Source of the DNA: an uncultured Gammaproteobacteria bacterium
Lineage (GTDB): Bacteria; Patescibacteriota; Microgenomatia; UBA12405
DNA: 64,000 nt
NCBI GenBank assembly: GCA_964408995.1
Contig: CAYPBP010000001.1
Location: 10,823 to 74,822 of the forward strand
Direction of reading: 5' to 3'
The translations under genes and the position numbers were made by a program. Below, piece after piece: positions 5,634 to 51,888 of the stretch; within the stretch, counting starts at the first letter, position 1, and each line of letters opens with the position of its first letter. The notes under the pieces were generated by a model. It was not told the origin of the DNA and searched no databases. It was given only the letters and a program-made list of their open reading frames with translations.

Positions 5634-7326
5634 TTTAAATAAAAATAAAGGTGCCCTGTCAAGGGAAAGGTGGTACGAAGTACCAAAGGGTTTATTTATT
5701 TTAATTACCATAATTGCTTTTTTTCTTCGACTTTGGCAATTAGATAAATTCCCTGTTGGTTTAAATTGGGATGAAGTTAGTCATGGTTATAACGCTTATA
5801 GCCTCTTAAATACAGCTAAAGATCAGTGGGGGAGTAAATTACCTATTTTTAATTTTAGAGCCTATGGTGATTACCCTACTACCCTTAATATGTATCTTTC
5901 AATGCCCTTTATATATTTCTTTGGTTTAAACGAATGGACTACTAGAATTGTCTCCGCTCTTTGTGGTTTTGGGTTAGTTATAATTTCCTATTTTTTAGGA
6001 AAAGAACTATTCCGTAATTCAAAAAATGCTTATTTACTAATGTTATTAGTAGCCTTATCTCCATGGACATTATTTCCATCCAGGGCTGTTTTCCAATCCA
6101 CCGTGGCTCAATTTTTTCTTGTTCTTGGAATTTTATTCTTAATTAAATCAATCAAAAAAATAAATTTTATTTTGCCAGCAGTTTTCTTCACATCAATTTC
6201 TACTTATGCTTATCATAATACTAAAATAGTTGTTCCATTTTTGCTTTTTTTCTACTTTATTATCTTTTTTAAAAACATCAAAGAAAAATTTAATAAACAT
6301 AAAAAACTTTTTACAGCTAGTTTGTTGATTCTTTCTTTTTTACTAATTCCCCAAATAATCAATACTTTCAACAAAGAGGCTCAAGCCAGAAGTCGATGGG
6401 TTTTTGCTATTAACCCAGCTTCGATTAATGAAATAGAAAATAATCGAAATAATTATCAAGGTAATAAATTTATTGCCAAATTAAAATACAATCGAGTAAC
6501 TTTTTTTTCCTCTGTTGTCACCAAAAATTATCTTGGTTTTATTAATCCTAAAATATTATTTTTTGACAGCACTCAAAATTTTCAATTTAACATCCCAAAA
6601 AGTGGTGTTCTTTTTCCAATATGCCTCCCATTCTTTTACATTGGGCTAGTAATACTATTTATAAAATTATTCAAAAAAGATCAGCTGTCATTTTTTCTAT
6701 TATCTTGGTTCCTAATCGGTTTAATTCCAGCAGTTATCACTGTTGGAGATTTTCCAATCATTAGAGGCATGACTATATTACCTCTTCCCCAAATTTTTAT
6801 AATTTATGGTCTTTCCCAAATTATTTCTTTATTAAAAGATAAAAAATTAAAATCAATCTTTATTTCTTTATTTCTATTAATTTTAATAATTCAATCAATT
6901 ATTTATCTTAAAAATTATTTCATTGATTACTCAAAAAACTATTCTAGCTCTTGGCAATATGGTTACAAAGAATCTATTAGCTATATAAAAGAAAATTATC
7001 ATAATTATGATCAAATAATCTTCACCAAGAAATATGGTGAAGCCCATGAATTCATATTATTTTATTGGCCATGGGATCCAAAATCATATCAAACAGATAC
7101 TCGTAAAAATTGGGGTTTTCATACTGATTGGTATTGGGTTAACGCTTTTGATAAATTCAAATTTATAAATGATTGGGAAATAAAAAAAGAAACCGAAAAT
7201 GTTAATCAAAAAACTCTTTTAATAACATCCCCTGACAACTATAATAAAAACAATACTACCTTACTTAAAACTATTTATTTTTTAAACAATTCACCTGCTT
7301 TCGATATTTTAACTATCAATGACTAA
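5623..7326 (+). CDS. GT-C fold membrane glycosyltransferase (PMT_2/GT39-like), paralogue 4; N-terminal tail encoded by a 47-nt GC-rich inserted element
   Basis: 567 aa; NWDEVSHGYNAYS motif shared with paralogues 5 and 6; N-terminal extension KGALSRERWYEVPKG is translated from the 47-nt element. Confidence 0.6.
   Translation: MKNNLNKNKGALSRERWYEVPKGLFILITIIAFFLRLWQLDKFPVGLNWDEVSHGYNAYSLLNTAKDQWGSKLPIFNFRAYGDYPTTLNMYLSMPFIYFFGLNEWTTRIVSALCGFGLVIISYFLGKELFRNSKNAYLLMLLVALSPWTLFPSRAVFQSTVAQFFLVLGILFLIKSIKKINFILPAVFFTSISTYAYHNTKIVVPFLLFFYFIIFFKNIKEKFNKHKKLFTASLLILSFLLIPQIINTFNKEAQARSRWVFAINPASINEIENNRNNYQGNKFIAKLKYNRVTFFSSVVTKNYLGFINPKILFFDSTQNFQFNIPKSGVLFPICLPFFYIGLVILFIKLFKKDQLSFFLLSWFLIGLIPAVITVGDFPIIRGMTILPLPQIFIIYGLSQIISLLKDKKLKSIFISLFLLILIIQSIIYLKNYFIDYSKNYSSSWQYGYKESISYIKENYHNYDQIIFTKKYGEAHEFILFYWPWDPKSYQTDTRKNWGFHTDWYWVNAFDKFKFINDWEIKKETENVNQKTLLITSPDNYNKNNTTLLKTIYFLNNSPAFDILTIND
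5648..5694. repeat. 47-nt GC-rich hairpin element, copy 1 (identical to 58350..58396)
   Basis: aaggtgccctgtcaagggaaaggtggtacgaagtaccaaagggttta; sub-hairpins CCCT-GTCA-AGGG and GGTAC-GAA-GTACC; TA dinucleotide flanks both copies. Confidence 0.85.
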
Positions 7327-13278: not shown

Positions 13279-14259
13279 ATGAAATCTAAGTTTTTTTCCA
13301 TTATTATTCCCGTCCGTAAAGTTAACCCATACCTCAAAGAAACATTATTAAAATTAAAGCAACAATCCTTTAAAAATTTTGAAGTTTTAGTTATCACTGA
13401 CAAAATTTCCGGTTCTGCTAACCCTTCTGAAAAAAGAAATTTAGGTGCCAAAAAAGCCAAAGGTGAATATTTAGTTTTTTTCGATGATGATTCCTATCCC
13501 AAAAAAAACTATTTTAAAAATGCTTTTAAATTAGTTCAAAAAAATCCTGATTTTGCCGCTTTTTGTGGCCCTTGCCTTACTCCGCCAAAAGATGATTATC
13601 TAAAACAAGCTTCTGGTTTAGTTTGGTCAAGTTGGCTTGGCAGTGGTGGAGCCGGACTTTATCGAAATAGTATTCAATCCTCTCGTTTTGTCACTGATTA
13701 TCCTAGTGTTAATTTAATTGTCAAAAAAGATGATTTTAATTCAATTGGTGGTTTTAATACTTCTTTTTGGCCAGGAGAAGATACTGTTCTTTGTTTAAGT
13801 TTAGTCAAAAAACTTAATAAAAAAATTTTTTACCATCCATCTTTAGTTGTTTATCATCATCGCCGATCAGTTATCATTCCTCATCTTCAACAAATCACTC
13901 GTTATGCCATTCAAAGAGGTTTCTTTGCCAAAAAGTTTCCTGAAACTAGTTTCAAAATTGGTTATTTCATTCCCACTTTCTTTGTATTTTATACACTACT
14001 ATTAACTATTAATTATTTAACAATTAACTATAATCTATTGTATATACCATTATATTTATATCTATCAATATTAATATTAACTTTTTTTAAATTTATATTA
14101 ACCAAAAACAAATTATTAACTTCCATTTTAGCCACCATTACCATCCCTATTACTCACATTTACTACGGTATACTATTCCTACGTGGTTTATTTAAAAAAG
14201 AAGTTAAATTCAAAGCCCATGCCTTCAACAAAAAAACCGGTAAATACATCGGTGGTTAA
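13279..14259 (+). CDS. glycosyltransferase family 2 with C-terminal membrane domain
   Basis: FSIIIPVRKVNP...FFDDDS motifs; four C-terminal hydrophobic helices. Confidence 0.6.
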   Translation: MKSKFFSIIIPVRKVNPYLKETLLKLKQQSFKNFEVLVITDKISGSANPSEKRNLGAKKAKGEYLVFFDDDSYPKKNYFKNAFKLVQKNPDFAAFCGPCLTPPKDDYLKQASGLVWSSWLGSGGAGLYRNSIQSSRFVTDYPSVNLIVKKDDFNSIGGFNTSFWPGEDTVLCLSLVKKLNKKIFYHPSLVVYHHRRSVIIPHLQQITRYAIQRGFFAKKFPETSFKIGYFIPTFFVFYTLLLTINYLTINYNLLYIPLYLYLSILILTFFKFILTKNKLLTSILATITIPITHIYYGILFLRGLFKKEVKFKAHAFNKKTGKYIGG

Positions 14260-17113
14260 ATCTATTTCTATTTCCTACCCACCACTAGTTTCTTCAAAAG
14301 GAACTCCTTTTTTATCCCAAAATCGTCAATTCCAATGGACAAACACTGGCAATGTTATTTATCCTGTCATTCCTGCCTATGCTGCTACTCTACTTAGTAA
14401 ACTTGGCTACAAAGTCTTTTGGGACGATGCTATAGCCCAAAAACTCACTTATTCAGACTGGCTAAAACGTCTTAAAAAAAATAAACCGAATATTATTGCC
14501 ATTGAAACCAAAACTCCAGTTATTAAAAAACATTGGCAAATAATTAATCAGATTAAAAAAGAATGTAAATGGAAACCTATTGTTATTCTTATGGGCGATC
14601 ATGTCACTGCACTACCGCAAGAATCAATTAAAAATAGTAAAGTTGATTATATTTTAATTGGTGGCGATTATGACTTTCTCTTATCCGAATTAATTGAATT
14701 AATTAATAACAAAAAAGCTCCAAAAAATAAAATATATAAATCCACCAAAAATCACAATTTAAATCAATTGCCAATCATTGATCGAAAATTAACTCAATGG
14801 CAAATCTATGCCTACAACAACACTAACTACAAATACAAACCCGGTTCTTATATTATGTCTGGTCGTGATTGTTGGTGGGGCAAATGCACTTTTTGCATAA
14901 CTGGTGATACTGGAATTACCACCAAGGAAAAAATTGATACAATAGAAAATATTGTCAACAGTAAAATTCCCTGCGAAGTTTTAACAGCCGAACATGGATA
15001 TCAAAAAGTTATCGATTGGCATAAAAGATTTATAAATGAAAATATAAAAAATGTTTCAACTCTATATCTACCAAATGTCTTAAAAATAACTCCTAATCAT
15101 AAAGTATATTATTTATCTAAAAATTCCTTAATCAGATGTAATAATAAAAACTCCTGGTCTTATAAATGTAAACCTTCAATGGTTTCCAAATTTCTTAAAT
15201 GTGATTCTTGCTTAAAGCAATATTATAAAAACTACACTATAGATTCAATTGAAGCTGGTAATTTAAAAGTTGGAGATTTTCTTGCAATTCCTATAGATTA
15301 TGAAATAAAAGATATAAAACAACTTAATGTTGAAAACATTATCTCTAAACAGCCAACAATATTTACTACTAATAAAAAAATAGCTGATAAAAAGGTTGAA
15401 AAAATAATTAAGCTTTGGGATCTAAAAAAATCTGAAAGAGCAATAAGTAAACTATTAGAAATTGATAGAGAAACTGTACATAGATATTTATCTTTAAATA
15501 AAAAAGGTGAATTATTAGAATCTATTAATCATCTATCATCTATTGATGATAAAATTTCATTTTTTAATGGTCATCACAAAATACCTAAAACTATTGAAAT
15601 CAATAATGATTTTTTGTTTATAGCTGGATTATTTATTGCAGAAGGACATGTTAGTTTTCATAAAAATAGACCAAATTCTGCCACGATTGGATTTACTTTT
15701 AATATAAAAGAGACAGATTTAATAGATAAAACAAAACAATTTTTTGCAAAATATCTCAATTTGAAATTAACAGAAACTATTAATGAAATTAACCATTCTT
15801 GTCAAATATCAGTTAGTTCAACTATTGTCGCAAAATTATTCCAAATTTTATTTGGAGACAATTGCTATCAGAAAAAAATCCCACCAGAATTACTATATCT
15901 TCCAATAGAAAAACAAAGACACTTACTTAACGGAATATTTACAGGAGATGGTCATCTACGTCCAGAAAATAAAAAGCGCAGTGGAAAGGAATATATTCTT
16001 GAAACTACATCTCTAACTCTTGCTAATCAAGTTTTTAATATGTTGTTAAGATTTGATGTATTACCAAGCTACAAGGCAATTTCACCAAGATTAGAAAATG
16101 AATCTATAAAATATAAAATTACCTTATTTAGGCAAGACATATTAAAAGTGTTCCCTGATATCAAATTTTTTGATAATCCCAAATCAACCTACAAGAAAGG
16201 ATTTATTTTAAACAATTTTGCTTTCGTTCCAATTATAAAAATAACAGAAGAAAATTTTAATGGTTATGTTTATAACTTAACTGTCAATAAAGACCATTCA
16301 TATGTCGCCAATTTTCTGGCAGTCAAAAATTGCTCTTGGACTACTCTTTTCCCAGGCAAATGTTTTCGTCAATTTTCTGTAAAACACACTATTAAAGAAA
16401 TTGAAAATTTAGTTTACAACTTCAAAGTTAAAGAAATTTTTGATGATTCAGGCACTCTTTCAGTTGGCCCATGGTTGAAAGAACTATGCCAAGAGTTAAT
16501 TAACAGAGGTCTTAACAAAAAAGTAAAAATAGGCTGTAATATGCGCTTTGGAGCCCTATCTTTAAAAGAATATCAATTAATGTATAAAGCTGGTTTCCGA
16601 TTTATTCTTTATGGACTTGAATCAGCCAATCAAAAAACTCTAGACTTTGTTAATAAAAATGAAAAAACTAGTGATGCTCTAAAAACTCTAACCATTGCCA
16701 AAAAAGCTAAGTTAGAACCACACGTCACGGTTATTATTGGTTATCCAAATGAAGATTTAAAAGATGCCAATAAAACTCTGTCACTGGCCAGAAAAATTTT
16801 CAAAAATGGTCTTGCTGACAGTCTTCAAGCCACCATTTTAATTCCCTATCCTGGCACCCCGCTTTTTAAATACTGTCAAGATGAGAATCTTCTTTTAACT
16901 AAAAATTGGGATGATTTTGACATGCGCCAACCAGTCATCAAATCATCTATTTCTCCAACAGAACAATTAGAATTAGTTCAAAACTTATTTAAAGGTATTT
17001 TAAGTCCTAAATTTATTTTCCAAAAGATAATTTCAATTCAATCTTTTTATGACATCAAACATCTTTCAAATTACGCTATTAAATATATTAAAAAATTAAA
17101 AGATTTCTCATGA
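14219..17113 (+). CDS. B12-binding domain / radical SAM protein (class B radical SAM, probable methyltransferase) interrupted by an intein
   Basis: N-terminal cobalamin-binding-like Rossmann region (IIAIETKTPVIKK...IVILMGDHVTALP...ILIGGDYD); Cys motif CWWGKCTF-C at the radical SAM cluster position; C-terminal region with GLESANQKTLD and IIGYPNEDLKD typical of the radical SAM core; track start 14183 is GTG, first ATG at 14219. Confidence 0.65.
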   Translation: MPSTKKPVNTSVVKSISISYPPLVSSKGTPFLSQNRQFQWTNTGNVIYPVIPAYAATLLSKLGYKVFWDDAIAQKLTYSDWLKRLKKNKPNIIAIETKTPVIKKHWQIINQIKKECKWKPIVILMGDHVTALPQESIKNSKVDYILIGGDYDFLLSELIELINNKKAPKNKIYKSTKNHNLNQLPIIDRKLTQWQIYAYNNTNYKYKPGSYIMSGRDCWWGKCTFCITGDTGITTKEKIDTIENIVNSKIPCEVLTAEHGYQKVIDWHKRFINENIKNVSTLYLPNVLKITPNHKVYYLSKNSLIRCNNKNSWSYKCKPSMVSKFLKCDSCLKQYYKNYTIDSIEAGNLKVGDFLAIPIDYEIKDIKQLNVENIISKQPTIFTTNKKIADKKVEKIIKLWDLKKSERAISKLLEIDRETVHRYLSLNKKGELLESINHLSSIDDKISFFNGHHKIPKTIEINNDFLFIAGLFIAEGHVSFHKNRPNSATIGFTFNIKETDLIDKTKQFFAKYLNLKLTETINEINHSCQISVSSTIVAKLFQILFGDNCYQKKIPPELLYLPIEKQRHLLNGIFTGDGHLRPENKKRSGKEYILETTSLTLANQVFNMLLRFDVLPSYKAISPRLENESIKYKITLFRQDILKVFPDIKFFDNPKSTYKKGFILNNFAFVPIIKITEENFNGYVYNLTVNKDHSYVANFLAVKNCSWTTLFPGKCFRQFSVKHTIKEIENLVYNFKVKEIFDDSGTLSVGPWLKELCQELINRGLNKKVKIGCNMRFGALSLKEYQLMYKAGFRFILYGLESANQKTLDFVNKNEKTSDALKTLTIAKKAKLEPHVTVIIGYPNEDLKDANKTLSLARKIFKNGLADSLQATILIPYPGTPLFKYCQDENLLLTKNWDDFDMRQPVIKSSISPTEQLELVQNLFKGILSPKFIFQKIISIQSFYDIKHLSNYAIKYIKKLKDFS
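14894..16330 (+). mobile_element. intein (479 codons) with double-motif LAGLIDADG homing endonuclease domain
   Basis: starts CITGDTGI (intein block A with Cys1), block B-like ITPNHKVYY, LAGLIDADG motifs FLFIAGLFIAEGH (15611..15649) and LLNGIFTGDGH (15923..15955) about 100 aa apart, ends HSYVANFLAVKN followed by +1 Cys (CSWTT); inserted exactly at third Cys of the Fe-S motif. Confidence 0.7.
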
Positions 17114-24237: not shown

Positions 24238-24807
24238 ATGATTACAAAAAATAAAATTATTTATGCTTTCATCGACAGCCAAAATTTAAACTTAGGCACA
24301 AGTAAAGATTTGTTTAAAAACGGTCTACAAATATATACTGGATGGAAGCTAGATAATAAAAAATTTCATCAATTCCTTTTAGACAAATTTAGAGTAACAA
24401 AAGCGTTTTTATTTATTGGTTATCTTGATCAGTATAAAGATTTATATAAATTTCTTAAATCAATTGGCTACACTCTTATTTTCAAACCTACGGTTAAAGA
24501 TGAACACGGAAAACCAAAAGGGAATGTTGATGCTGAATTAGTTTTACATTCCGCTGCTATTGAATTTGAAAATTATGACAAAGCAGTAATCGTTTCAGGA
24601 GATGGTGACTTCAGTTGTTTACATAAATATCTCAAACAACACAAAAAATTAGAAAAAATTATTATTCCAAACAAATTTTCCGAATCAAGTCTTTTAAAAG
24701 ATTTTCAAGATTATAAATTGTTTTTATACCGGGAAAAAGAAAAGCTAGAATATATACCACCAAAATTACAAATTAAGTCCAAAAAAAATGGGAGGCGTCG
24801 CTCATAA
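24238..24807 (+). CDS. NYN (LabA-like) domain protein
   Basis: IYAFIDSQNLNLG...KGNVDAELVLH...VIVSGDGDFSCL motifs. Confidence 0.55.
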   Translation: MITKNKIIYAFIDSQNLNLGTSKDLFKNGLQIYTGWKLDNKKFHQFLLDKFRVTKAFLFIGYLDQYKDLYKFLKSIGYTLIFKPTVKDEHGKPKGNVDAELVLHSAAIEFENYDKAVIVSGDGDFSCLHKYLKQHKKLEKIIIPNKFSESSLLKDFQDYKLFLYREKEKLEYIPPKLQIKSKKNGRRRS

Positions 24808-25055
24808 GCACTTAGCTTAAGGGTCGTGTTCTCCCTGATGATTGTGTCAATTATACAATAATTATCCATATCATGTCAATCCCACCATAGTCCTCTAAAG
24901 CACCAGAGTACAGCAAGCACTAATGCATCAAAGTGCTAGTGTGTTAAATTAACCTCTTGACACAAAATATCGTGTCATAACCTGTAAGTGTAATATATTT
25001 ACATATAGGGGTCACATGAGCTTTATAAAAGATTTTATTAAATCAAAAAAAGTTT

Positions 25056-25826
25056 TTAAACAGTTTTTAAATTTTCTTTTATAAAATCCAAGATATAATC
25101 ATAAAATTCCAACAAACGATCTCTTTGATCAATAGGCACAAATGGTTTCAAGTCTAAGATAAACTTTTCCTTACTAAACTTATTTATCTTAGCAATTAAT
25201 TGGTCCGACATAAAAGTCTTTATATTGTAATATTTTAATTTTTCTTTCACTAATTTTTCATCTATAAAAATATTTTTACTCAATAAAAACCATAAATCAT
25301 AAATATCTCGTCCTTTATCTCGAGTTAATGTTGCTCTAATTTTTTCGGCCAATATTTCTTCAGCTGACAAATGATTCACATAAGCAGTAAATATAACTGG
25401 ATAATTTGTGTTTACAATTGATTGACTTGGATTTATCACTTTTTCCCTAAAAGAAAAATCAAGATTAATAAATATTTTATAATTAACTATATTCAAATCA
25501 GCCGTCAACAAATATTTATCTCCAGTAATAGTTTTTCTTTTCTTGAAATTAAAACCATATAATTTTTCTAGTTTCTTAAAAAATTTTATTATAAACACAT
25601 CAAATTCCTCTTTATCTCCCATAACGGTAAAATCTAAATCTTCTGAAAAACGTGTTCCTTTTAAAATTAATCTTATTGCTGTTCCTCCCTTAAAAAAAAT
25701 ATTTTGAGAATATTTTTCATCGTATAATTCCTTCAAAAATAGTGTTTGAATATACTCTCGAACCACTACACTTTCATTTATTTTTAACAGTCTTGAAAAT
25801 TCTTTTATTTGATTAGTAGTTAACAT
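25056..25826 (-). CDS. AbiEii/AbiGii-family nucleotidyltransferase toxin (type IV toxin-antitoxin/abortive infection)
   Basis: FFKGGTAIRLILKGTRFSEDLDFTV motif; 4-nt gap to upstream antitoxin gene. Confidence 0.6.
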   Translation of the reverse strand: MLTTNQIKEFSRLLKINESVVVREYIQTLFLKELYDEKYSQNIFFKGGTAIRLILKGTRFSEDLDFTVMGDKEEFDVFIIKFFKKLEKLYGFNFKKRKTITGDKYLLTADLNIVNYKIFINLDFSFREKVINPSQSIVNTNYPVIFTAYVNHLSAEEILAEKIRATLTRDKGRDIYDLWFLLSKNIFIDEKLVKEKLKYYNIKTFMSDQLIAKINKFSKEKFILDLKPFVPIDQRDRLLEFYDYILDFIKENLKTV

Positions 25827-25830
25827 ATTA

Positions 25831-26424
25831 TTATTTAATGATTTTTTTAACCAATTCCATAATATTCTTATCTGCTTTTAATTGACGACACATATCTAAA
25901 AATGTTTTTACATTAATGTTTCCCAGATCATATTCATCAAAATTAATTGATTTAAGACCTTTTGAAGCTAAATAAATTTGATCAAAAAGAGCTTTTTCTG
26001 GCAAAGCTATCAGCATATTATTTTTTTTAGTAAACATTCCAAAATATTTGGAATTTATATGACTGTAACTATATATTTTTTCATCAAATTTTTTAGTGAT
26101 ATTTTTCTTTGAAGTTACGTTAGTTATTTCAAAAGGAAATTGTGACAAAATACCCCAATAATTAAGAGCTGTTTCCAAAGAAATATAAGATGGTTGGTAC
26201 AAAAAATTAGCTATTTCAAAAGTATCTATATTTTTTCCAGTTACACAATACTTATTCTTTTCGATATTAATTAAAACTCCATTCTTTATAAAATCACTAA
26301 CAATTCGGTAATAAGTCCTTTCACTTTTTATACCCAAAATATCTTTTAATGTTTTTGAATTTATCAAAGTAAACCCAGACTCAAGTAATTTTTTTGTCAA
26401 TAAACTTAAACTATACGATTCCAT
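25831..26424 (-). CDS. AbiEi-family antitoxin / transcriptional regulator
   Basis: N-terminal winged-helix-like region, C-terminal AbiEi-like domain; directly upstream of AbiEii-like gene. Confidence 0.55.
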   Translation of the reverse strand: MESYSLSLLTKKLLESGFTLINSKTLKDILGIKSERTYYRIVSDFIKNGVLINIEKNKYCVTGKNIDTFEIANFLYQPSYISLETALNYWGILSQFPFEITNVTSKKNITKKFDEKIYSYSHINSKYFGMFTKKNNMLIALPEKALFDQIYLASKGLKSINFDEYDLGNINVKTFLDMCRQLKADKNIMELVKKIIK

Positions 26425-26433
26425 ATACTGTCA

Positions 26434-26462
26434 ATATTAGACACTATATAGAACCGTGTCAA
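26434..26462 (-). promoter_or_regulatory. sigma70-like promoter TTGACA-17-TAATAT for the abiEi/abiEii pair, overlapped by TGTC-N7-GACA inverted repeat (candidate AbiEi operator)
   Basis: minus-strand read agtacTTGACAcggttctatatagtgtcTAATATtgacagtatATG; further GACAC-N8-GTGTC and TGTCAA repeats at 24841..24981 on the other flank. Confidence 0.45.
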
Positions 26463-26539
26463 GTACTAATAAAAACAACCTCCTAGTAAATTGACCAGAC
26501 TACTAGCACACCAGAGCACTAACGTACTATAATGCATTA

Positions 26540-27340
26540 ATGCTTTCTCTTATCAAAGAAATAAAAGACATCTACAAATGGCGCGAACTATTATGGCAAA
26601 TGGTTGGCCGTGAAGTCAAAGCTCGCTACAAACAATCCATCCTCGGTTATTTCTGGGTTATCCTAAATCCACTAGCTCAAATGCTAGTCATGTCTTTTGC
26701 TTTCTCAATCATCATGCGAATTCCTACCAATTCAGCCAGCAATATTCCTTATTCTATTTTCCTTTTCGTTGCTCTTTTACCTTGGAACTTATTCACCGGT
26801 TCCCTTAGTTCAGCCGCTGGAGCCATAGTTGGAGCCGGTGGTTTAGTTACCAAAATTTATTTCCCTCGAACTATTTTAGTAATTGCCACTATCGTTGCTA
26901 AAATTATTGATTTTCTTTTTGCCAACATAGTCTTAGTTATTTATATGATTATTTACAACATACCAATCAATATAAATATTCTTTGGGTTATTCCAATCTT
27001 TTTTATTCAACAAATTTTCACTCTTGGTCTATCTCTTTTCTTTGCCGCCGCCAATCTTCTCTACCGAGACATTCAATACCTTTTATCAATGATTTTGCTT
27101 CTTTGGATGTATGTCACTCCAGTCATCTTCCCAGCCGATTTAGTCCCAGAAAGATACCGCTTTGTTTTCCAGATAAACCCTATGGCTGTCATTATTAATG
27201 CTTACAGGCAAGTAATTCTAGCTGGAGGTGTCCCTAAATACTCCAGTTTAGCCATCGCCATTGTCGTTTCTCTTATAACTCTTTTAATTGGCTTTAAATA
27301 TTTCAAATCTCGCGAAAAAATCTTCGCCGATAATATTTAG
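26540..27340 (+). CDS. ABC-2 type polysaccharide export permease (Wzm/TagG-like)
   Basis: WRELLWQMVGREVKARYKQSILGYFW signature; 6 TM helices. Confidence 0.7.
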   Translation: MLSLIKEIKDIYKWRELLWQMVGREVKARYKQSILGYFWVILNPLAQMLVMSFAFSIIMRIPTNSASNIPYSIFLFVALLPWNLFTGSLSSAAGAIVGAGGLVTKIYFPRTILVIATIVAKIIDFLFANIVLVIYMIIYNIPININILWVIPIFFIQQIFTLGLSLFFAAANLLYRDIQYLLSMILLLWMYVTPVIFPADLVPERYRFVFQINPMAVIINAYRQVILAGGVPKYSSLAIAIVVSLITLLIGFKYFKSREKIFADNI

Positions 27341-27341
27341 T

Positions 27342-27374
27342 CCTCTAGAACGCTGGTACTCTAGATCTCTAGAC
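27342..27374. repeat. degenerate period-8 array (ctctagNN)
   Basis: tcctctagaacgctggtactctagatctctagac; intergenic between the permease and the four-helix-bundle gene. Confidence 0.6.
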
Positions 27375-27409
27375 AATTAACAAATCAAAAACTAGCGAAA
27401 TAAATTAAT

Positions 27410-27775
27410 ATGAATTTTACTGATCTAAATATTTGGAAAGAAAGTAATAAATTAGCTATTACCATATATAAAATAACTAAAAATTTTCCAAAATCGGAAA
27501 TTTTTGGAATAACATCCCAACTACAAAGGGCTTCTACTTCTATTTCTGCTAATATTGCTGAAGGTTTCGGAAGGAAAGGCAATAAAGAATTTATCCAATT
27601 TTTATATCAAGCAAAAGGTTCTCTCTATGAAACTCAAAATTTTATACTTTTCAGCCGAGATATAGGTTATATTGAAAAATCAGAATCAGAAATTTTATTA
27701 AATCAATACGAATCATTAGCTAAAATGTTAAATTCCTTTATTACTAAGGTAAAATATAATAATGAAAACAAATAA
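27410..27775 (+). CDS. four-helix-bundle protein (PF05635-like, '23S rRNA intervening-sequence protein' family), copy 1
   Basis: 121 aa; LNIWKESNKLAITIYKIT...SQLQRASTSISANIAEGFGR motifs; sits between wzm- and wzt-like genes. Confidence 0.65.
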   Translation: MNFTDLNIWKESNKLAITIYKITKNFPKSEIFGITSQLQRASTSISANIAEGFGRKGNKEFIQFLYQAKGSLYETQNFILFSRDIGYIEKSESEILLNQYESLAKMLNSFITKVKYNNENK

Positions 27776-28553
27776 GGTGTCTAGCGAACCAGCGAACCAG
27801 CGAACCAGCGAACCAGACCAAATCGTTATACGATTTGGTCATGTTACCAAAGATTTTAGCAAACTCTCTCATAAAACCTTCAAAGAATTTCTTCCCGCTC
27901 TAATCAAAGGCGAAAAAACAGCTGAAAGTTTTACTGCTCTAAAAGACATTAGCTTTGAAATTAAAAAAGGGGAGACAGTTGGCATAATTGGTCCAAATGG
28001 CAGTGGCAAATCAACTATTCTAAAGCTCATTGCCGGCGTTATGTGGCCAACATCCGGAACAGTGCAAGTCAAAGGTAAAATCTCTCCTCTAATCGAGCTT
28101 GGTGCCGGCATGCATCCAGAATTAACTGGCAGTGAAAATATTTACTTAAACGGCGCCATTCTTGGTCTTTCTCAAAAAGAAATTGCGACCAATTACAAAT
28201 CTATTGTCGATTTTGCCGAAATTTGGGAATTTATCGATCAACCAATCAAACATTATTCTTCAGGTATGTATATGCGCCTTGCTTTTGCCATTGCCATTCA
28301 TGTCCACCCCGAAATTCTAATAGTCGACGAAATTCTATCTGTTGGTGATGCTGCTTTCCAAGACAAATGTTTCAAAAAGATGGAAGAATTTCAAAAATCA
28401 AAAGACATTACCATTATTTTTGTTACCCATGCTTTAGCTCAAGTCGAAAAATTCTGCACCCGCGCCATTTACATCAACAACCATCAAATCCAGTACGACG
28501 GCGATACTCAAAAAGCAACTAAAAAATATTTAGACGATCTAGAAAACAAATAA
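27762..28553 (+). CDS. ABC transporter ATP-binding protein (Wzt/TagH-like polysaccharide export ATPase)
   Basis: Walker A GPNGSGKST, signature YSSGM, Walker B ILIVDE; 5' end contains perfect octamer repeat. Confidence 0.75.
   Translation: MKTNKVSSEPANQRTSEPDQIVIRFGHVTKDFSKLSHKTFKEFLPALIKGEKTAESFTALKDISFEIKKGETVGIIGPNGSGKSTILKLIAGVMWPTSGTVQVKGKISPLIELGAGMHPELTGSENIYLNGAILGLSQKEIATNYKSIVDFAEIWEFIDQPIKHYSSGMYMRLAFAIAIHVHPEILIVDEILSVGDAAFQDKCFKKMEEFQKSKDITIIFVTHALAQVEKFCTRAIYINNHQIQYDGDTQKATKKYLDDLENK
27783..27819. repeat. perfect tandem octanucleotide repeat (agcgaacc) x4 plus partial copy, inside codons 8-19 of wzt-like gene
   Basis: ctagcgaaccagcgaaccagcgaaccagcgaaccagacc; translated SSEPANQRTSEPDQ. 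Confidence 0.9.
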
Positions 28554-28572
28554 TACACTAGCGCAAGTAGTA

Positions 28573-29397
28573 TTATTTGAGCTTAATGGATTTTTTCTGA
28601 GATAAATAGTTTTTTTTAGAAACAATTGTTTTACCAAGTTCATTTTCCAGTTCTTTTCTGGCATTTCCAGCAATTTTACCACCTCTGTTCGCGTCACTTT
28701 TTAATTTGGGTACACCAATGGATTTTTCTTGGCGATGAATTTCAGTAGTAGACCTTTCTCCTAGCATAGTGAAGATCAATTCGAAATCATCCATATGATC
28801 TCTTAAATTTTCTCTTTTGATTCCTTTGAGTTTTTTATATTCAATTGGAGTTACTCCAAAAGTGGCTTTAGAAATTTCTGCAGTCAAAATTTCATAATCT
28901 TTTTGTTCTTTAGCACCTCGTTTTTGCCATTCGTCAGTTAATTCCTCGCGGATGGCAATACCACGCATTCTTTTTTCAATCCAACTTTCTGAATAACCTT
29001 TAGCTTGGTACAAGGCACGAGTTCGCTTGGTGGCTAATTCTGGATCTTCGATTTCTTGGACTCGTTCATAACCAACTTTTGCTAACCACATTTTAAATGG
29101 TTCAGCCTTAGGTGAGGGGATTGATTGAATAATTCTAAATATTCCTTCAGTATTAGCACAATCTGTAATATATTTTTTCCCATCTGATGATTCAAGTTTC
29201 AGTTGTCGACAAATTGTCGATAACTGAAATCCATCATCATTCTTAACTCTTATTTTCATTTTAAACCAATAATCGTTAGGATTGACACTATCAGTGAGTG
29301 ATTGAACTACATCCACAACTGAAAACCACCACTCATTTGAATAAATTGTTCTTCTAATTTTTTTACCTTTAAAAATTGCCAAATAATTGTTGTTCAT
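28573..29397 (-). CDS. Bro-N domain protein with DinD-like C-terminal region, copy 1
   Basis: Bro-N pattern (KKIRRTIYSNEWWFSVVDV...NTEGIFRIIQSIPSPKAEPFKMWLAKVG); near-identical paralogue at 52925..53746. Confidence 0.6.
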   Translation of the reverse strand: MNNNYLAIFKGKKIRRTIYSNEWWFSVVDVVQSLTDSVNPNDYWFKMKIRVKNDDGFQLSTICRQLKLESSDGKKYITDCANTEGIFRIIQSIPSPKAEPFKMWLAKVGYERVQEIEDPELATKRTRALYQAKGYSESWIEKRMRGIAIREELTDEWQKRGAKEQKDYEILTAEISKATFGVTPIEYKKLKGIKRENLRDHMDDFELIFTMLGERSTTEIHRQEKSIGVPKLKSDANRGGKIAGNARKELENELGKTIVSKKNYLSQKKSIKLK

Positions 29398-29403
29398 ACT
29401 AAA

Positions 29404-29431
29404 ATAATACTAGAGTAATTGGTCTTGTCAA
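29404..29431 (-). promoter_or_regulatory. sigma70-like promoter TTGACA-16-TATTAT, 6 nt upstream of Bro-N copy 1 start
   Basis: minus-strand ttcggttttagtcaTTGACAagaccaattactctagTATTATtttagtATG; about 60 nt conserved with 51841..51888. Confidence 0.45.
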
Positions 29432-29652
29432 TGACTAAAACCGAAGAAAACACGAATGTAAATAAATAATAAAATTTAAAAAAATACATTAGTACTATAT
29501 GTTAAACTCATTAATCATCTAACAAAAGCGATTCAATAATACTCATCTTATCCCCAAATTTCAACTCAAGCAATTGTGCAAGAAAATGTGTATAAATGCT
29601 TGAAACCAAGCAATTATTCAATTTTTGTGAAACTGTGTTAAAATTATAATTA

Positions 29653-30858
29653 ATGATACAAAGACCAGAATATATTCAAAAACTTAAAGATTTACGCGAC
29701 AAAAAAATAATTAAAGTAATAACCGGTGTTCGTCGTTGTGGAAAGTCAACTTTATTAGAAATATATCAAAAAGAATTAATTAATGATGGTGTTTCCTCTA
29801 GCCAAATTCAATATTATAATTTCGAAAACCCAAAAAATTTAGTTTGGGCCGATAAATGGTTGGAACTTTATCAAAATATTATAAATAAAACCATAAAAGG
29901 TAAACAAAATTATATTTTTTTGGATGAAATTCAAAATATAAATAATTTTGAACGCCTAACTGATGGCCTTTTTGTTAAAAAGGGAATTGACTTATATGTT
30001 ACTGGGTCAAATGCTTATTTTCTCTCCCAAGATATAGCTACTATTCTTTCTGGTCGAATGTTTGAAATCAAAGTATTTCCCTTATCTTTTTCAGAGTATA
30101 TTTCAGCATTCAAAGATAAAAATGATCTTTCAGATAAGTTCGAAAAATATATTCAATATGGAGGAATGCCTCAAATTTTAGATTTTAAGAACAACCAAGG
30201 CCTTATATTAGAATATCTTCAAGGTTTATATAATACGGTTCATCTTAATGATGTTCTTAAACGACCTGGAGTTAATGATAAAGATGTTCTTAAAGATATT
30301 TCAGCTTTTATGTTAGATAATATTGGCAATATTACTGCTGCTAAAAAAATTGCTGATACTCTAACTTCAAAAGGTCGAGCAATATCTCACAGTACTGTTG
30401 AAAAATATATTTCCGCCTTAGCGGAAAGTTTACTCTTCTATTCAATTGACAAAATTGGCCTTAAAGGTCGTAAACGTTTATATTCTCAAAAAAAGTTTTA
30501 TACAATAGACACTGGTTTTAGACAAATAATTCTTAGTAGCAACCAATCAAGTGAAGACAGAGGCCATTTATTAGAAAATATTGTATATTTAGAATTACTC
30601 AGACGTAATCTTAAAGTAAATTTTGGTCGAGTTGGTGATAAAGAAGTCGATTTTGTAGTTACAACAAAAGAAGGGTATACTGAATATTACCAAGTATCTT
30701 GGAGTGTTAGAGACAAACATACATATCAAAGAGAAATAACACCCTTAGAATCTATAAAAGATCACAATACTAAATATCTGTTAACGATTGATCCAGAAGA
30801 ATCAATTAATAACGGCATCCGTCAAAAAAATGTCATCAATTGGCTTCTTGAAATTTAA
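29653..30858 (+). CDS. AAA+ ATPase (DUF4143-type 'ATP-binding protein')
   Basis: Walker A GVRRCGKST, Walker B FLDEIQ; C-terminal DUF4143-like region. Confidence 0.6.
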   Translation: MIQRPEYIQKLKDLRDKKIIKVITGVRRCGKSTLLEIYQKELINDGVSSSQIQYYNFENPKNLVWADKWLELYQNIINKTIKGKQNYIFLDEIQNINNFERLTDGLFVKKGIDLYVTGSNAYFLSQDIATILSGRMFEIKVFPLSFSEYISAFKDKNDLSDKFEKYIQYGGMPQILDFKNNQGLILEYLQGLYNTVHLNDVLKRPGVNDKDVLKDISAFMLDNIGNITAAKKIADTLTSKGRAISHSTVEKYISALAESLLFYSIDKIGLKGRKRLYSQKKFYTIDTGFRQIILSSNQSSEDRGHLLENIVYLELLRRNLKVNFGRVGDKEVDFVVTTKEGYTEYYQVSWSVRDKHTYQREITPLESIKDHNTKYLLTIDPEESINNGIRQKNVINWLLEI

Positions 30859-30864
30859 AACAAA

Positions 30865-30987
30865 ATGAAATTACAAATCAAAAAATTCTGCACCCGCGCC
30901 ATTTACATCAACAATCATCAAATTCAATATGATGGTGATACTGCAAAAGCCACTAAAAAATATTTAGCTGATTCAGAAAATAAATGA
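30865..30987 (+). pseudogene. decayed duplicate of the last ~36 codons of the wzt-like gene (mini-ORF remnant)
   Basis: aaaaattctgcacccgcgccatttacatcaacaa identical to 28442..28475, remainder ~85% identical to 28476..28553 with mostly synonymous changes; stop overlaps downstream ATG (ATGA). Confidence 0.55.
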
Positions 30988-32111
30988 ACCTCTATAGAAA
31001 ATTAGTTCCCGAAATTATCCGAACTCAAATCCGAAATCCCCAATATATTTTTGATGATCTAAAATTTCTATCAAAATTTTTATCAAAGGCTCAATCATCA
31101 ACAAATTCCACCATTGCAAAATCTATTTGTTATATCATTCCCACAACCAACATCACTGGTGGTGTGGCTGTTGTCTGTGAACACTTAAACAGGCTAAAAA
31201 AACTTGGCTACAAAACTCTAATTGCAAGTTATGACAATAAAACCGATCTTTCTTGGTTCCCAGATCAATCTGTCAAAGTTATCCCTCTAAAAGGTAACAA
31301 GGAAACTATTGAAAAATACGAAACAGTTGTGGCCACTGGTTGGATAACCGCCTATGAGCTCTTATTATTAAATGTCAAAAGAAAAATTTATTTTGTTCAA
31401 TCCGATGAAACCCGATTTTACCCCAAGGGTAGTTATCTAAAACAAAGAGTCAAAAGAACTTACTCTTTTCCTTTCGAATTTATGACCATTGCCAAATGGC
31501 TTCAAAAATTCCTAAAAGAAAATTTTAATCAAGATTCTTTTTATGTCCCCAATGGCATTAATACCGATATTTTCCATCCCGATACTCCGTTTGCTCCAAA
31601 ACCAAAAAACAAAAAAAGAATATTACTCGAAGGAGCCATAAACCTTCCTTTCAAAGGCATGGAAGAAGCATTTAAAGTTGTCCAAGACCTAGATTGTGAA
31701 GTATGGTGTGTTTCCTACGATGGCAAACCAAAACCAGAATGGCATTGCAACAGATTCTTTGAAAAAGTTCCCATGCAAGACATGAGAAAAATCTATTCAT
31801 CTTGTGACATTCTATTAAAATTATCAAAAGTAGAAGGCTTCTTTGGTCCTCCACTTGAAATGATGGCCTGTGGGGGAGTCTCAATTGTTGCCAAAGTCAC
31901 TGGCTATGATGAATATATAATCGATGGCTATAATGCACTAGTTACAGAACCAAATAACTTCAAAAAAACCAAAAAACTTTTACAAAAGCTAATTAGTGAT
32001 AAAAAATTGTATAATCATCTAAAATCCAATTCTCAAAAAACAGTTGAAAAAATGAGTTGGAATAAAACAATTTTAAATTTAAAAACATTTATAAATGAAA
32101 AAAGAAAATAA
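30984..32111 (+). CDS. glycosyltransferase family 4 (GT-B)
   Basis: YVPNGINTDIFHP and KVEGFFGPPLEMMACGGVSIV motifs. Confidence 0.55.
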   Translation: MNLYRKLVPEIIRTQIRNPQYIFDDLKFLSKFLSKAQSSTNSTIAKSICYIIPTTNITGGVAVVCEHLNRLKKLGYKTLIASYDNKTDLSWFPDQSVKVIPLKGNKETIEKYETVVATGWITAYELLLLNVKRKIYFVQSDETRFYPKGSYLKQRVKRTYSFPFEFMTIAKWLQKFLKENFNQDSFYVPNGINTDIFHPDTPFAPKPKNKKRILLEGAINLPFKGMEEAFKVVQDLDCEVWCVSYDGKPKPEWHCNRFFEKVPMQDMRKIYSSCDILLKLSKVEGFFGPPLEMMACGGVSIVAKVTGYDEYIIDGYNALVTEPNNFKKTKKLLQKLISDKKLYNHLKSNSQKTVEKMSWNKTILNLKTFINEKRK

Positions 32112-49702: not shown

Positions 49703-49885
49703 ATGTCCGATTATCTTGAAATTAGGCATTCCCTTGTAAGTGGAGGAAAAACAATTAACCAAATTTGTGAAGAAACAAAACTCCAAATGGGAAAAGTGAT
49801 GAAAATTATACACCGCACCCATAAAAAGCATTTTTGTGTTATCGATTGTAAAATCCATATTAAAAGACAAAAAGAGGGAAAATAG
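49703..49885 (+). CDS. small winged-helix-like protein, tandem paralogue 1
   Basis: 60 aa; RBS aaggaaa; HTH-like TINQICEETKLQMGKVMKII. Confidence 0.4.
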   Translation: MSDYLEIRHSLVSGGKTINQICEETKLQMGKVMKIIHRTHKKHFCVIDCKIHIKRQKEGK

Positions 49886-49886
49886 T

Positions 49887-50066
49887 ATGTGTAAATATTC
49901 GCAGATTATTGAATGTCTTCAAGGCGGTCCTATCCATGTTTCAAAATTATCCAAAAAAACCGATTGTTCTTTAAAAGAAATAAAAGATGAACTCAAAAGA
50001 AAGGGCAAGAAGTTTTTAATAGCCAACGGCAAAATCAGCTTAATAGAAAGTACGGAGGCAAAATAA
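49887..50066 (+). CDS. small winged-helix-like protein, tandem paralogue 2
   Basis: 59 aa from ATG 49887 (track 49836 start lies inside previous gene); RBS agaggga; SKLSKKTDCSLKEIKDEL. Confidence 0.4.
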   Translation: MCKYSQIIECLQGGPIHVSKLSKKTDCSLKEIKDELKRKGKKFLIANGKISLIESTEAK

Positions 50067-50249
50067 ATGACCAAATTCAGAAAAGTCACAACGGCCTTAA
50101 ACAAATCAGGTAAAAAAACCCTAAAAGAAATTGCAAATGAAACAGGCCTGAGTGAAGAAGCGGTTAATGATGTTATTTTAAAACACCAAGACATTATCGA
50201 ATCCAAACAAAACGGAATATATTTTTACTCATACCAATACCCCTCTTAA
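50067..50249 (+). CDS. small winged-helix-like protein, tandem paralogue 3
   Basis: 60 aa; RBS ggagg; HTH-like TLKEIANETGLSEEAVNDVILKH. Confidence 0.4.
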   Translation: MTKFRKVTTALNKSGKKTLKEIANETGLSEEAVNDVILKHQDIIESKQNGIYFYSYQYPS

Positions 50250-51755: not shown

Positions 51756-51854
51756 AAATAAAAACCTCTTTGTCTCACTTCATTCGACATCTCCCCTTAA
51801 AAAAGGGAGATAAAAAAATAATTTACAGATTTGGGTTTTATTCGGTTTTAGTCA

Positions 51855-51882
51855 TTGACAAGACTAACTAGTCGAGTATTAT
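51855..51882 (+). promoter_or_regulatory. sigma70-like promoter TTGACA-16-TATTAT, 6 nt upstream of RhuM-like gene start
   Basis: ttcggttttagtcaTTGACAagactaactagtcgagTATTATtttgatATG; conserved with the minus-strand copy at 29404..29448. Confidence 0.45.
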
Positions 51883-51888
51883 TTTGAT

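What the first reader, a model, noticed from the sequence alone, without database searches (positions are those of the whole stretch)
28437..30987. 2.3 kb Bro-N + AAA-ATPase cassette flanked by a duplicated wzt 3' end (integration-site signature)
The last ~110 nt of the wzt-like gene (28442-28553) are repeated at 30878-30987. The first 34 nt are identical; the remainder is ~85% identical with mainly synonymous substitutions (QYDGDTQKATKKYLDDLENK versus QYDGDTAKATKKYLADSENK). The downstream copy forms a 41-codon mini-ORF whose stop overlaps the next GT4 start (ATGA). It therefore looks like the ancestral wzt end, now separated from wzt by an insertion carrying a Bro-N/DinD-like gene (minus strand, own strong promoter) and a DUF4143 AAA ATPase. 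The insertion supplied a replacement 3' end. Gene-end duplication of this kind is typical of site-specific integrative elements, yet no integrase is present in the window.
Basis: seen in the sequence. Interest (0 to 1): 0.55.

Follow-up and report, generated by a model that had tools for sequence, protein, structure and literature searches.

The report
Displaced gene end beside inserted cassettes
Two small accessory (candidate anti-phage) genes have been slotted between a sugar-polymer export gene (wzt) and the glycosyltransferase gene that normally follows it; the export gene received a new tail and its old tail was left behind as a stub, and the same kind of scar turns up next to the same ATPase gene family at unrelated genes in other microbes.

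Summary
The repeat is real. Window 28440-28553 (wzt 3' end) recurs at 30874-30987 with a 34/34-nt identical core and 58/73 identity after it.

Four relatives have wzt directly followed by the GT4 orthologue with the same ATGA overlap, so the downstream copy marks the ancestral junction. The 2.3-kb insert is two separate modules, both matching untested PADLOC defence candidates: Bro-N (PDC-S13) and AAA_14+DUF4143 ATPase (PDC-S01). Each occurs elsewhere on its own.

I found no integrase or transposase in the ORFs scanned. The junction position inside wzt differs between relatives. The two copies differ almost only at synonymous sites (dS about 1.8 after the core), so they are diverged alleles, not a decaying in-situ duplicate. 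One pair of loci shows a sharp recombination breakpoint inside the stub.

Best reading: 3' end displacement by recombination anchored in the conserved wzt, comparable to rhs C-terminal displacement, rather than integrase-mediated integration.

Unexpectedly, DUF4143 ATPase genes are flanked by 50-190-nt copies of neighbouring sequence in about 8 of 20-25 contexts (wzt, terL, M23 peptidase, radC, a GmrSD/HNH gene), against about 0.6% of control genes. A cassette-specific insertion mechanism therefore stays open.

The parts
26540..27340 (+). wzm-like ABC-2 permease; conserved partner of wzt
   Evidence: Pfam ABC2_membrane; 78-87% aa identical in relatives
27410..27775 (+). Four-helix-bundle '23S rRNA-intervening sequence protein' gene inserted between wzm and wzt; a separate insertion, absent from L087
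   Evidence: Pfam 23S_rRNA_IVP 1.9e-39; TIGR02436; present in some relatives only
27762..28553 (+). wzt-like polysaccharide/teichoic-acid export ATPase, intact; body closest to L163 (about 90% nt); 3' end from about 28434 has a different ancestry
   Evidence: Pfam ABC_tran; NCBIfam TagH/Wzt-type, below cut-off; max-chi2 breakpoint at 28434, p=0.0045
28440..28553 (+). Repeat copy A: the functional, replacement 3' end of wzt. Core 28447-28480; post-core GC3 0.29, like the wzt body
28573..29463 (-). Bro-N module: gene 28573-29397 plus its promoter region (-35/-10 at 29431-29404). PADLOC candidate PDC-S13. A paralogous module lies at 51821-53746
   Evidence: Pfam Bro-N; PDC-S13 2.6e-118; 78.7% nt to 52925-53721 and 85% for 29387-29463 vs 51821-51899; promoter-like 11/12; the wzt|Bro-N junction is 90% identical in L085
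29464..29559 (.). Spacer between the two modules; no homologue found
   Evidence: boundaries
29560..30858 (+). AAA_14+DUF4143 ATPase module: conserved upstream inverted-repeat region 29560-29652 plus gene 29653-30858. PADLOC candidate PDC-S01. Homology to relatives ends at 30851-30863
   Evidence: Pfam; PDC-S01 7e-140; module boundaries shared with L165, L166, L167
30859..30873 (+). Joint: 'aacaaaATGAAATTA'. It resembles the piece after the ATPase genes in L166, which carries a GT4 5' start fused to a wzt stub. It supplies the ATG of the mini-ORF
   Evidence: sequence comparison; the match is weak for the window's 9 nt
30865..30987 (+). Mini-ORF (40 aa) made of the joint plus the displaced wzt 3' end; its stop overlaps the GT4 start (ATGA)
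   Evidence: in frame in all four independent stubs: window, L006/L102, L093, L166
30874..30987 (+). Repeat copy B: displaced wzt 3' end. Core 30881-30914 is identical to copy A. Post-core (GC3 0.04) shares 6 consecutive synonymous states with the L163 allele
30984..32111 (+). GT4 glycosyltransferase; follows wzt directly in L087, L090 and L131, and 6 nt after the wzt stop in L088
   Evidence: Pfam Glycos_transf_1; synteny

Best explanation
This is a 3' end displacement scar at a recombination hot spot. wzm-wzt is a highly conserved pair that borders a variable block of glycan genes. DNA from a lineage carrying a diverged wzt allele, followed by accessory genes (Bro-N and the DUF4143 ATPase), recombined into a resident wzt-GT4 locus. 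The left crossover used wzt homology at about 28400-28447. The right end joined just 5' of, or within, the last ~110 nt of the resident wzt. The gene therefore ends in the incoming allele (copy A). The resident's own last ~110 nt (copy B) stay attached to GT4 and now begin with an ATG from the joint. The identical 34-nt core is the crossover or conversion tract. Steps shown: insertion relative to empty-site relatives; two separate modules; allelic (mostly synonymous) divergence of the copies; a breakpoint at the repeat's 5' edge; a recombination breakpoint inside the stub in other loci. Steps inferred: which DNA was incoming; the route (transformation with one-sided homology, i.e. homology-facilitated illegitimate recombination, or Campbell-type entry of a circle as proposed for rhs tips); and that the stub is kept because translating the mini-ORF preserves translational coupling into GT4.
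For: Empty sites: L087 has NYN(91%)-wzm-wzt-GT4(83%) contiguous, and L090, L131 and L088 are similar. Modules are separable. The Bro-N paralogue at 52925-53746 has the same promoter but RhuM in between. The ATPase module has the same boundaries in a plasmid-like context (L165) and another context (L167), with no flanking repeat. No integrase was found. The copies are old alleles: dN 0.075, dS 0.73 overall; dS about 1.8 after the core and 0 in the core. Copy A shares synonymous states with the L003, L092 and L109 alleles, copy B with the L163, L083, L086 and L090 alleles. The breakpoint against the closest wzt is at 28434, p=0.0045. The architecture recurs with other junctions: L006/L102 at codon ~197, L093 at ~222 (131 nt, 100% identical), and L166 with two ATPases each followed by a stub. 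L006 and L102 are 98% identical over 8.1 kb up to 52 nt into the stub, then unrelated. This is direct evidence that crossovers happen there. Published models for the same pattern: rhs C-terminal displacement via homologous recombination and a circular intermediate (PMC2935791); T6SS effector-immunity arrays via homology-facilitated illegitimate recombination (PMC5361080).
Against: Simple one-sided homology does not explain why the ATPase stop codon abuts the stub within 0-25 nt in every same-strand case (window, L006, L093, L166, L233). It also does not explain why DUF4143 ATPase genes are far more often flanked by copies of local sequence than control genes. No close relative of either copy was sampled, so the donor/resident assignment rests on a handful of sites. 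Competence of this organism was not examined. The translational-coupling role of the mini-ORF is untested, and L102 and L093 have no overlapping downstream start.
Confidence: 0.55

Rival explanations
1. The AAA_14+DUF4143 (PDC-S01) gene is itself a mobile cassette. It embeds at or near gene ends, either by duplicating 50-190 nt of the target or by carrying a replacement end. Its PD-(D/E)XK domain may drive this in a homing-like way. The wzt stub is then the footprint of that mechanism, and Bro-N is a later nested arrival.
For: In the wzt sample, every locus with an ATPase downstream of wzt has a stub and none of about 30 others does. Flanking copies of local sequence also occur at unrelated targets: terL (L233/L234, 118 nt 93%), an M23 peptidase in a T4SS operon (L188/L189, 109 nt 93%), the radC 5' region (L265, 105 nt 84%, in an array with a YhcG/DUF1016 nuclease), and a GmrSD/HNH gene on an Acinetobacter plasmid (L271). 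In the control set, strong flanking repeats occur in 2 of about 356 other ORFs of similar size. The ATPase stop abuts the stub within 0-25 nt. DUF4143 is classed as PD-(D/E)XK (PMC3424549). The mechanism of 'embedding' is stated to be unexplored (bioRxiv 10.1101/2024.01.29.577857).
Against: Most sampled ATPase genes have no flanking repeat: 64 of 68 IMG/VR loci (similar to shifted controls, 6/112), plus L165, L038, L272-L274. The window-type subfamily has Q-V-[S/A] where the (D/E)xK motif should be. Repeat copies differ mainly at synonymous sites, which fits allelic exchange better than a fresh target duplication. Toxin-antitoxin cassettes show the same scar without any ATPase (L019, L020, L081). 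The count of 'independent contexts' is my own rough grouping.
Confidence: 0.22
2. It is a remnant or satellite of a site-specific integrative element (CIME-like). An integrase encoded elsewhere recombined an attP that contained the wzt 3' end with the 34-nt core in wzt, as phage 21 and e14 do in icd (from my own knowledge of those systems).
For: An identical core lies at the 5' edge of the repeat, followed by a diverged replacement end, and there is a stub at the far side. Empty sites exist. Tandem stubs in L166 resemble accretion at one att site.
Against: No integrase was found in 64 kb. Junctions lie at four different wzt positions. B's 7 nt upstream of the core are also wzt-like, of another allele type. 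The element is two modules with independent distributions and no shared ends. The ATPase module elsewhere lacks any att-like repeat.
Confidence: 0.13
3. It is an in-situ tandem duplication of the wzt end, followed by insertion between the copies and divergence. Alternatively, it is an assembly chimera of two strains.
For: L093 has a perfect 131-nt repeat. The contig is a metagenome-assembled one.
Against: dS of about 1.8 with dN/dS of about 0.05 after the core is not what a decaying duplicate gives. The ATPase-to-stub joint and the stub-to-GT4 link are each present, 100% identical, in assemblies from two other samples.
Confidence: 0.04

Closest known systems
rhs / CDI / T6SS 'C-terminal displacement' and orphan arrays (PMC2935791; PMC5361080)
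   Same: A conserved 5' part of a gene acts as the recombination anchor. A new 3' end arrives together with a linked downstream gene. The old 3' end is pushed downstream and retained, and arrays of stubs can build up (L166). No dedicated recombinase is involved. [quoted passage not shown]
   Different: The displaced ends here are functionally equivalent wzt tails, not alternative toxins. The linked cargo is a candidate defence gene, not an immunity gene. The host is a CPR bacterium (Shapirobacteria-like).
Integrative elements that target a gene's 3' end and supply a replacement end (phage 21 and e14 in icd; tRNA-targeting islands; CIMEs). Cited from my own knowledge.
   Same: A direct repeat made of the gene end; an identical core followed by a diverged replacement end; a stub at the distal side; empty sites in relatives.
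   Different: No integrase; variable junction positions; cargo made of independently distributed single-gene modules; a 2.3-kb size.
Mobile endonuclease ORFs in fungal mitochondria that carry a substitute C-terminus for the invaded gene (Allomyces atp6/ORF360). Cited from memory, not checked here.
   Same: Gene, then foreign ORF, then the displaced original 3' end. The invaded gene stays functional.
   Different: No evidence here that the ATPase cleaves wzt. The window-type protein lacks the canonical (D/E)xK lysine.
PADLOC phage-defence candidates PDC-S01 (AAA_14+DUF4143), PDC-S13 (Bro-N type) and PDC-S05 (RhuM), defined as genes embedded in BREX, DISARM and type I RM operons (bioRxiv 10.1101/2024.01.29.577857)
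   Same: Strong full-length HMM matches. As there, the genes sit embedded inside an operon without breaking it.
   Different: The host operon is a glycan export/biosynthesis cluster, not a defence system. Defence activity is untested for these candidates.

Membership tests
Site-specific integrative element (integrase-mediated) | Integrase/recombinase gene in or next to the element | tested here: not met
   No recombinase, integrase or transposase Pfam family in the ORFs scanned across the 64-kb window
Site-specific integrative element (integrase-mediated) | Identical att core flanking the insert | tested here: met
   34/34 nt at 28447-28480 and 30881-30914
Site-specific integrative element (integrase-mediated) | Same attachment position in independent carriers | tested here: not met
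   Stub starts at different wzt codons: ~197 (L006/L102), ~222 (L093), ~226 (window), ~231 (L166)
Site-specific integrative element (integrase-mediated) | Empty target sites in relatives | tested here: met
   L087, L090, L131, L088
3' end (C-terminal) displacement by recombination (rhs-type process) | Conserved 5' part, new 3' end plus linked gene, old 3' end retained downstream | tested here: met
   array of two stubs in L166
3' end (C-terminal) displacement by recombination (rhs-type process) | The two ends are diverged alleles rather than a fresh duplication | tested here: met
   dN 0.075 / dS 0.73; post-core dS about 1.8; L006 dS saturated. L093 is the exception (identical copies)
3' end (C-terminal) displacement by recombination (rhs-type process) | Recombination breakpoints located in the conserved/stub sequence | tested here: met
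   L006 vs L102: 98% over 8.1 kb, break 52 nt into the stub; window vs L163 break at 28434
Homology-facilitated illegitimate recombination | One homologous anchor and one microhomology joint | tested here: inconclusive
   The anchor is plausible (wzt). The joint 30859-30880 has no assignable donor sequence, so microhomology cannot be scored
Homology-facilitated illegitimate recombination | Naturally transformable host | not tested
   Competence genes were not looked for; only 64 kb is available
Homing-endonuclease-type selfish cassette | Element-encoded nuclease with an intact active site | tested here: inconclusive
   DUF4143 is classed PD-(D/E)XK (PMC3424549). The L006, L093 and L038 proteins have E..D..E[IV]K, but the window subfamily has E..D..QV[S/A]
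Homing-endonuclease-type selfish cassette | Cleavage of the cassette-free allele near the insertion point | not testable with these tools
   Needs biochemistry
Integron gene cassette | attC-type imperfect palindrome at the cassette 3' end, and IntI | tested here: not met
   The flanking repeat is wzt coding sequence. No structured repeat was found at the module ends and no integrase. The L168/L178 repeat is a GC-rich double hairpin but belongs to another locus
PADLOC PDC-S01 / PDC-S13 | Full-length match to the candidate's HMM | tested here: met
   PDC-S01 7.2e-140 over residues 1-400; PDC-S13 2.6e-118 over residues 1-271
PADLOC PDC-S01 / PDC-S13 | Anti-phage activity | not testable with these tools
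   The source describes these candidates as untested

The most novel reading that the evidence does not exclude
AAA_14+DUF4143 ATPase genes (COG1373, PADLOC PDC-S01) are a widespread class of single-gene mobile cassettes. They embed themselves at the ends of unrelated genes (wzt, terL, M23 peptidase, radC, GmrSD/HNH) without inactivating them, by duplicating or replacing 50-190 nt of the target. This would be a mechanism for how 'embedded' defence genes enter operons. It may be driven by their own PD-(D/E)XK domain and needs no integrase or transposase.
Probability: 0.22. Interest if true: 0.8.

Novelty: new variant of a known kind. Interest (0 to 1): 0.5.

Why it matters
The window's feature on its own is a tidy but ordinary recombination scar. 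It shows that the wzm-wzt pair of these CPR bacteria is a hot spot. Relative to L087, every junction of NYN-wzm-wzt-GT4 has been colonised by an accessory cassette (AbiE, the four-helix-bundle gene, Bro-N plus ATPase), and downstream glycan genes are swapped with crossovers inside wzt.

What makes it more than routine is the recurrence. The same 'gene, ATPase, displaced gene end' layout appears with two ATPase lineages only 27% identical at wzt, and again at a phage terminase gene, a conjugation-operon peptidase gene, radC and a plasmid nuclease gene.

How candidate defence genes come to be embedded inside operons without breaking them is explicitly open in the paper that defined these candidates. 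These scars make that question testable, both by a genome-wide census and by a simple excision/transfer assay.

Tried and rejected
1. Exact-protein look-ups for the window's Wzt and Bro-N proteins found nothing on record.
2. Rfam at gathering threshold found no RNA family in the window.
3. I tried to decide which copy is ancestral by nearest-neighbour identity of the 73 post-core nt. This was inconclusive: both copies are 75-88% identical to all sampled alleles. Only the run of shared synonymous states with L163 is informative.
4. I looked for similarity of the 20 nt after copy A's stop to the GT4 start. It is 12/25, not above chance in AT-rich DNA, so I dropped it.
5. I rejected the idea that the flanking repeat is a general property of the ATPase module. 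L165 and L167 lack it, and 64 of 68 IMG/VR loci lack it, no better than shifted controls.
6. The opposite idea, that the repeat is only a wzt-locus property, is contradicted by L188, L233, L265 and L271.
7. In-situ duplication was rejected on dS.
8. Assembly chimera was rejected on independent assemblies.
9. The literature holds nothing on mobility of DUF4143/COG1373 genes: 3 and 8 papers respectively, none relevant.
10. The 51-nt repeat round the ATPase in the lepA loci (L168/L178) is a GC-rich double hairpin. I left it as ambiguous rather than counting it as a gene-end copy.
Full report
**The observation**

The repeat exists as described. The repeat finder reports 28440-28560 vs 30874-30994 (83%). 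blastn reports 112 nt at 85.7%. The identical 34-nt core lies at 28447-28480 and 30881-30914. The following 73 nt match at 58 positions.

The downstream copy is a 40-codon ORF (30865-30987) whose stop overlaps the start of the GT4 gene. Pfam confirms the following genes:
- wzm, 26540-27340
- a four-helix-bundle '23S rRNA IVP' gene, 27410-27775
- wzt, 27762-28553
- Bro-N, 28573-29397 on the minus strand
- AAA_14+DUF4143, 29653-30858
- GT4, 30984-32111

Wzt homologues place the organism among Candidatus Shapirobacteria-like CPR bacteria. Two Logan assemblies from other samples are identical to the window and stop inside the core (L002 = 29209-30910; L001 starts at 30885). A 34-nt repeat has this effect at k=31. 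This also shows that both junctions are real.

**Is it an insertion?**

Yes. In L087 the order NYN (91% aa) - wzm - wzt - GT4 (83%) is contiguous, with the same AAATGA stop/start overlap. L090 and L131 are the same. In L088 the GT4 start lies 6 nt after the wzt stop.

Relative to L087 the window carries three separate insertions:
- AbiEi/AbiEii between NYN and wzm
- the four-helix-bundle gene between wzm and wzt
- Bro-N plus the ATPase between wzt and GT4

**What was inserted**

The insert is not one element but two modules.

*Bro-N module.* The Bro-N gene with its promoter (11/12 match to consensus) has a paralogue at 52925-53746 (78.7% nt). The promoter and first codons (29387-29463) recur at 51821-51899, there followed by a RhuM gene and then Bro-N. 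The junction 'wzt stop | Bro-N 3' end' is 90% identical at a contig end in L085, whose Wzt C-terminus differs.

*ATPase module.* The ATPase module (about 29560-30851/63, including a conserved inverted repeat upstream) recurs with the same boundaries in three places:
- L166
- L165, a plasmid-like context (Replic_Relax, HTH_38)
- L167

All three gene types match untested PADLOC phage-defence candidates: PDC-S13 for Bro-N, PDC-S01 for the ATPase and PDC-S05 for RhuM. These candidates were defined as genes embedded in BREX, DISARM and type I RM operons.

No integrase, recombinase or transposase family hit any ORF scanned in the window.

**Nature of the two copies**

The copies are diverged alleles, not a decaying duplicate. 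Over 37 codons, dN is 0.075 and dS is 0.73. After the core, dS is about 1.8 with dN/dS of about 0.05. Within the core, dS is 0.

GC3 of copy A after the core (0.29) matches the wzt body (0.30-0.34). Copy B has GC3 of 0.04.

Against the closest wzt (L163, 92% aa), the window shows a maximum-chi-square breakpoint at 28434: 9.9% mismatch upstream and 23% downstream, permutation p=0.0045. This is the 5' edge of the repeat.

At 28481-28502, copy B shares six consecutive synonymous states with L163 where copy A differs. B's core, however, equals A's core and differs from L163 at 8 of 34 sites.

Copy B therefore reads as [A-like core] + [resident-like remainder]. The core is a crossover or conversion tract.

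**Recurrence at wzt**

- L006 and L102 have wzt - DUF4143 ATPase (27% identical to the window's) - wzt stub of ~190 nt - next gene.
- L093 has an 83%-related ATPase and a perfect 131-nt repeat ending at the wzt stop.
- L166 has both ATPase types in tandem, each followed by a stub. Each stub is preceded by a piece homologous to the GT4 5' start, although the next gene there is not GT4.

The stubs start at different wzt codons. In a sensitive profile search, stubs occur only where an ATPase follows wzt.

L006 and L102 are 98% identical over 8.1 kb up to 52 nt into the stub. They are about 70% identical to its end and unrelated beyond it. This is a sharp homologous-recombination breakpoint that swaps the downstream glycan genes.

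All four independent stubs are in frame behind an ATG. This suggests, but does not prove, selection for translation into the downstream gene.

**Mechanism**

The evidence consists of:
- allelic divergence of the copies
- variable junctions
- breakpoints inside wzt and inside the stub
- separable modules
- absence of a recombinase

Together these fit recombination anchored in a conserved gene, with a non-homologous or short-homology joint on the other side. That process has been proposed for rhs C-terminal displacement, via homologous recombination and a circular intermediate (PMC2935791). It has also been proposed for T6SS effector-immunity arrays, via homology-facilitated illegitimate recombination (PMC5361080). 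I give this reading 0.55.

**An unexplained excess**

When I tested ATPase genes in other contexts, several were again flanked by copies of neighbouring sequence:
- L188/L189: a T4SS operon, with 109 nt (93%) of the M23 peptidase 3' end retaining its own stop
- L233/L234: a prophage, with 118 nt (93%) of the terL 3' end starting at the ATPase stop codon, then a second DUF4143 gene
- L265: 105-nt copies of the radC upstream region and first codons round the ATPase, and again after a YhcG/DUF1016 nuclease gene
- L271: an Acinetobacter plasmid, with a decayed copy of a GmrSD/HNH gene's 3' region

Among 362 control ORFs of 300-500 aa, strong flanking repeats (E ≤ 1e-10) occurred only at the four ATPase genes and two others.

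Against this:
- 64 of 68 IMG/VR loci, and L165, L038 and L272-L274, have none. The IMG/VR rate equals that of shifted controls.
- The window-type subfamily lacks the canonical (D/E)xK lysine.
- Toxin-antitoxin cassettes show the same scar (L019, L020, L081).
- The repeats differ mostly at synonymous sites.

I therefore keep 'the ATPase is itself a mobile, gene-end-duplicating cassette' as the main rival (0.22) and as the most novel reading not excluded. The tight abutment of the ATPase stop codon with the stub (0-25 nt in five cases) is the observation that the preferred explanation handles worst.

**Verdict**

The feature is a new variant of a known kind of recombination scar. It comes with a lead on how embedded defence-candidate genes enter operons.

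Noticed in passing
window 5648-5694 and 58350-58396: A 47-nt perfectly identical, GC-rich element (AAGGTGCCCTGTCAAGGGAAAGGTGGTACGAAGTACCAAAGGGTTTA, two short hairpins) sits inside two unrelated coding regions: the N-terminus of a PMT-like gene and a GT4 gene. None is expected by chance. It is reminiscent of small palindromic elements that insert into ORFs. Its fold energy is not unusual (z = -0.7).
   Followed up: partly
window 14183-17113: A 976-aa radical-SAM protein carries an intein with a LAGLIDADG homing-endonuclease domain (Pfam Intein_splicing below its cut-off, LAGLIDADG_3, Radical_SAM), in the middle of the glycan gene cluster.
   Followed up: no
window 51821-53746: A second Bro-N (PDC-S13) gene, 77% aa identical to the first, is preceded by a RhuM (PDC-S05) gene placed between the shared promoter/first codons and Bro-N. 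L165 likewise has an HTH_38 gene between the conserved ATPase promoter region and the ATPase. In both cases a gene appears to be slotted in just behind a promoter.
   Followed up: partly
window 27410-27775 and 56009-56374: Two four-helix-bundle '23S rRNA-intervening sequence protein' genes (53% aa identical). The first sits between wzm and wzt and overlaps the wzt start. The same insertion is present in only some relatives (L007, L012, L089, L093, L094). Other relatives carry different genes at that spot (a NYN-like gene in L085; DUF5674 plus a 90-aa gene upstream of wzt in L163).
   Followed up: partly
window 27783-27814: A tandem octamer AGCGAACC (four to five overlapping copies) lies inside an N-terminal extension of wzt (…SSEPANQRTSEP…) that relatives lack.
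   Followed up: no
window 24238-26424: A NYN-domain gene is followed by an AbiEi/AbiEii toxin-antitoxin pair on the minus strand. The pair is absent between NYN and wzm in L087. AbiEii also sits directly upstream of DUF4143 ATPase genes in the lepA loci L168-L187.
   Followed up: partly
L019 3966-4723; L020 3128-4900; L081 3444-4316: In proteobacterial loci, small toxin-antitoxin cassettes are flanked by 53-87-nt copies of the neighbouring sequence: RelE/ParE-like in L019, a RAYT-like gene plus BrnT/BrnA-like genes in L020, and ParD-like in L081 (named from sequence recognition, not searched). In L019 and L020 the upstream copy covers the 3' end of the upstream gene. This is the same scar without any ATPase.
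   Followed up: partly
L168 3835-3884 / 5295-5345 (also L178, L180): The DUF4143 ATPase upstream of lepA is bracketed by a ~51-nt GC-rich double-hairpin repeat (86-88% identical) that overlaps the AbiEii stop codon. It could be a terminator/REP-like element or a cassette boundary.
   Followed up: no
window 26400-32100 vs flanks: wzm, wzt and the first GT4 are 33-40% G+C (GC3 0.27-0.35), against 21-28% for neighbouring genes (GC3 0.15-0.20). Wzt is 70-92% identical across many CPR lineages. The transporter block looks horizontally exchanged as a unit.
   Followed up: partly
window 49703-50249: Three small tandem ORFs (60-76 aa) lie in the gap before the UDP-glucose dehydrogenase-like gene. Two of them were scanned and have no Pfam match.
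   Followed up: no
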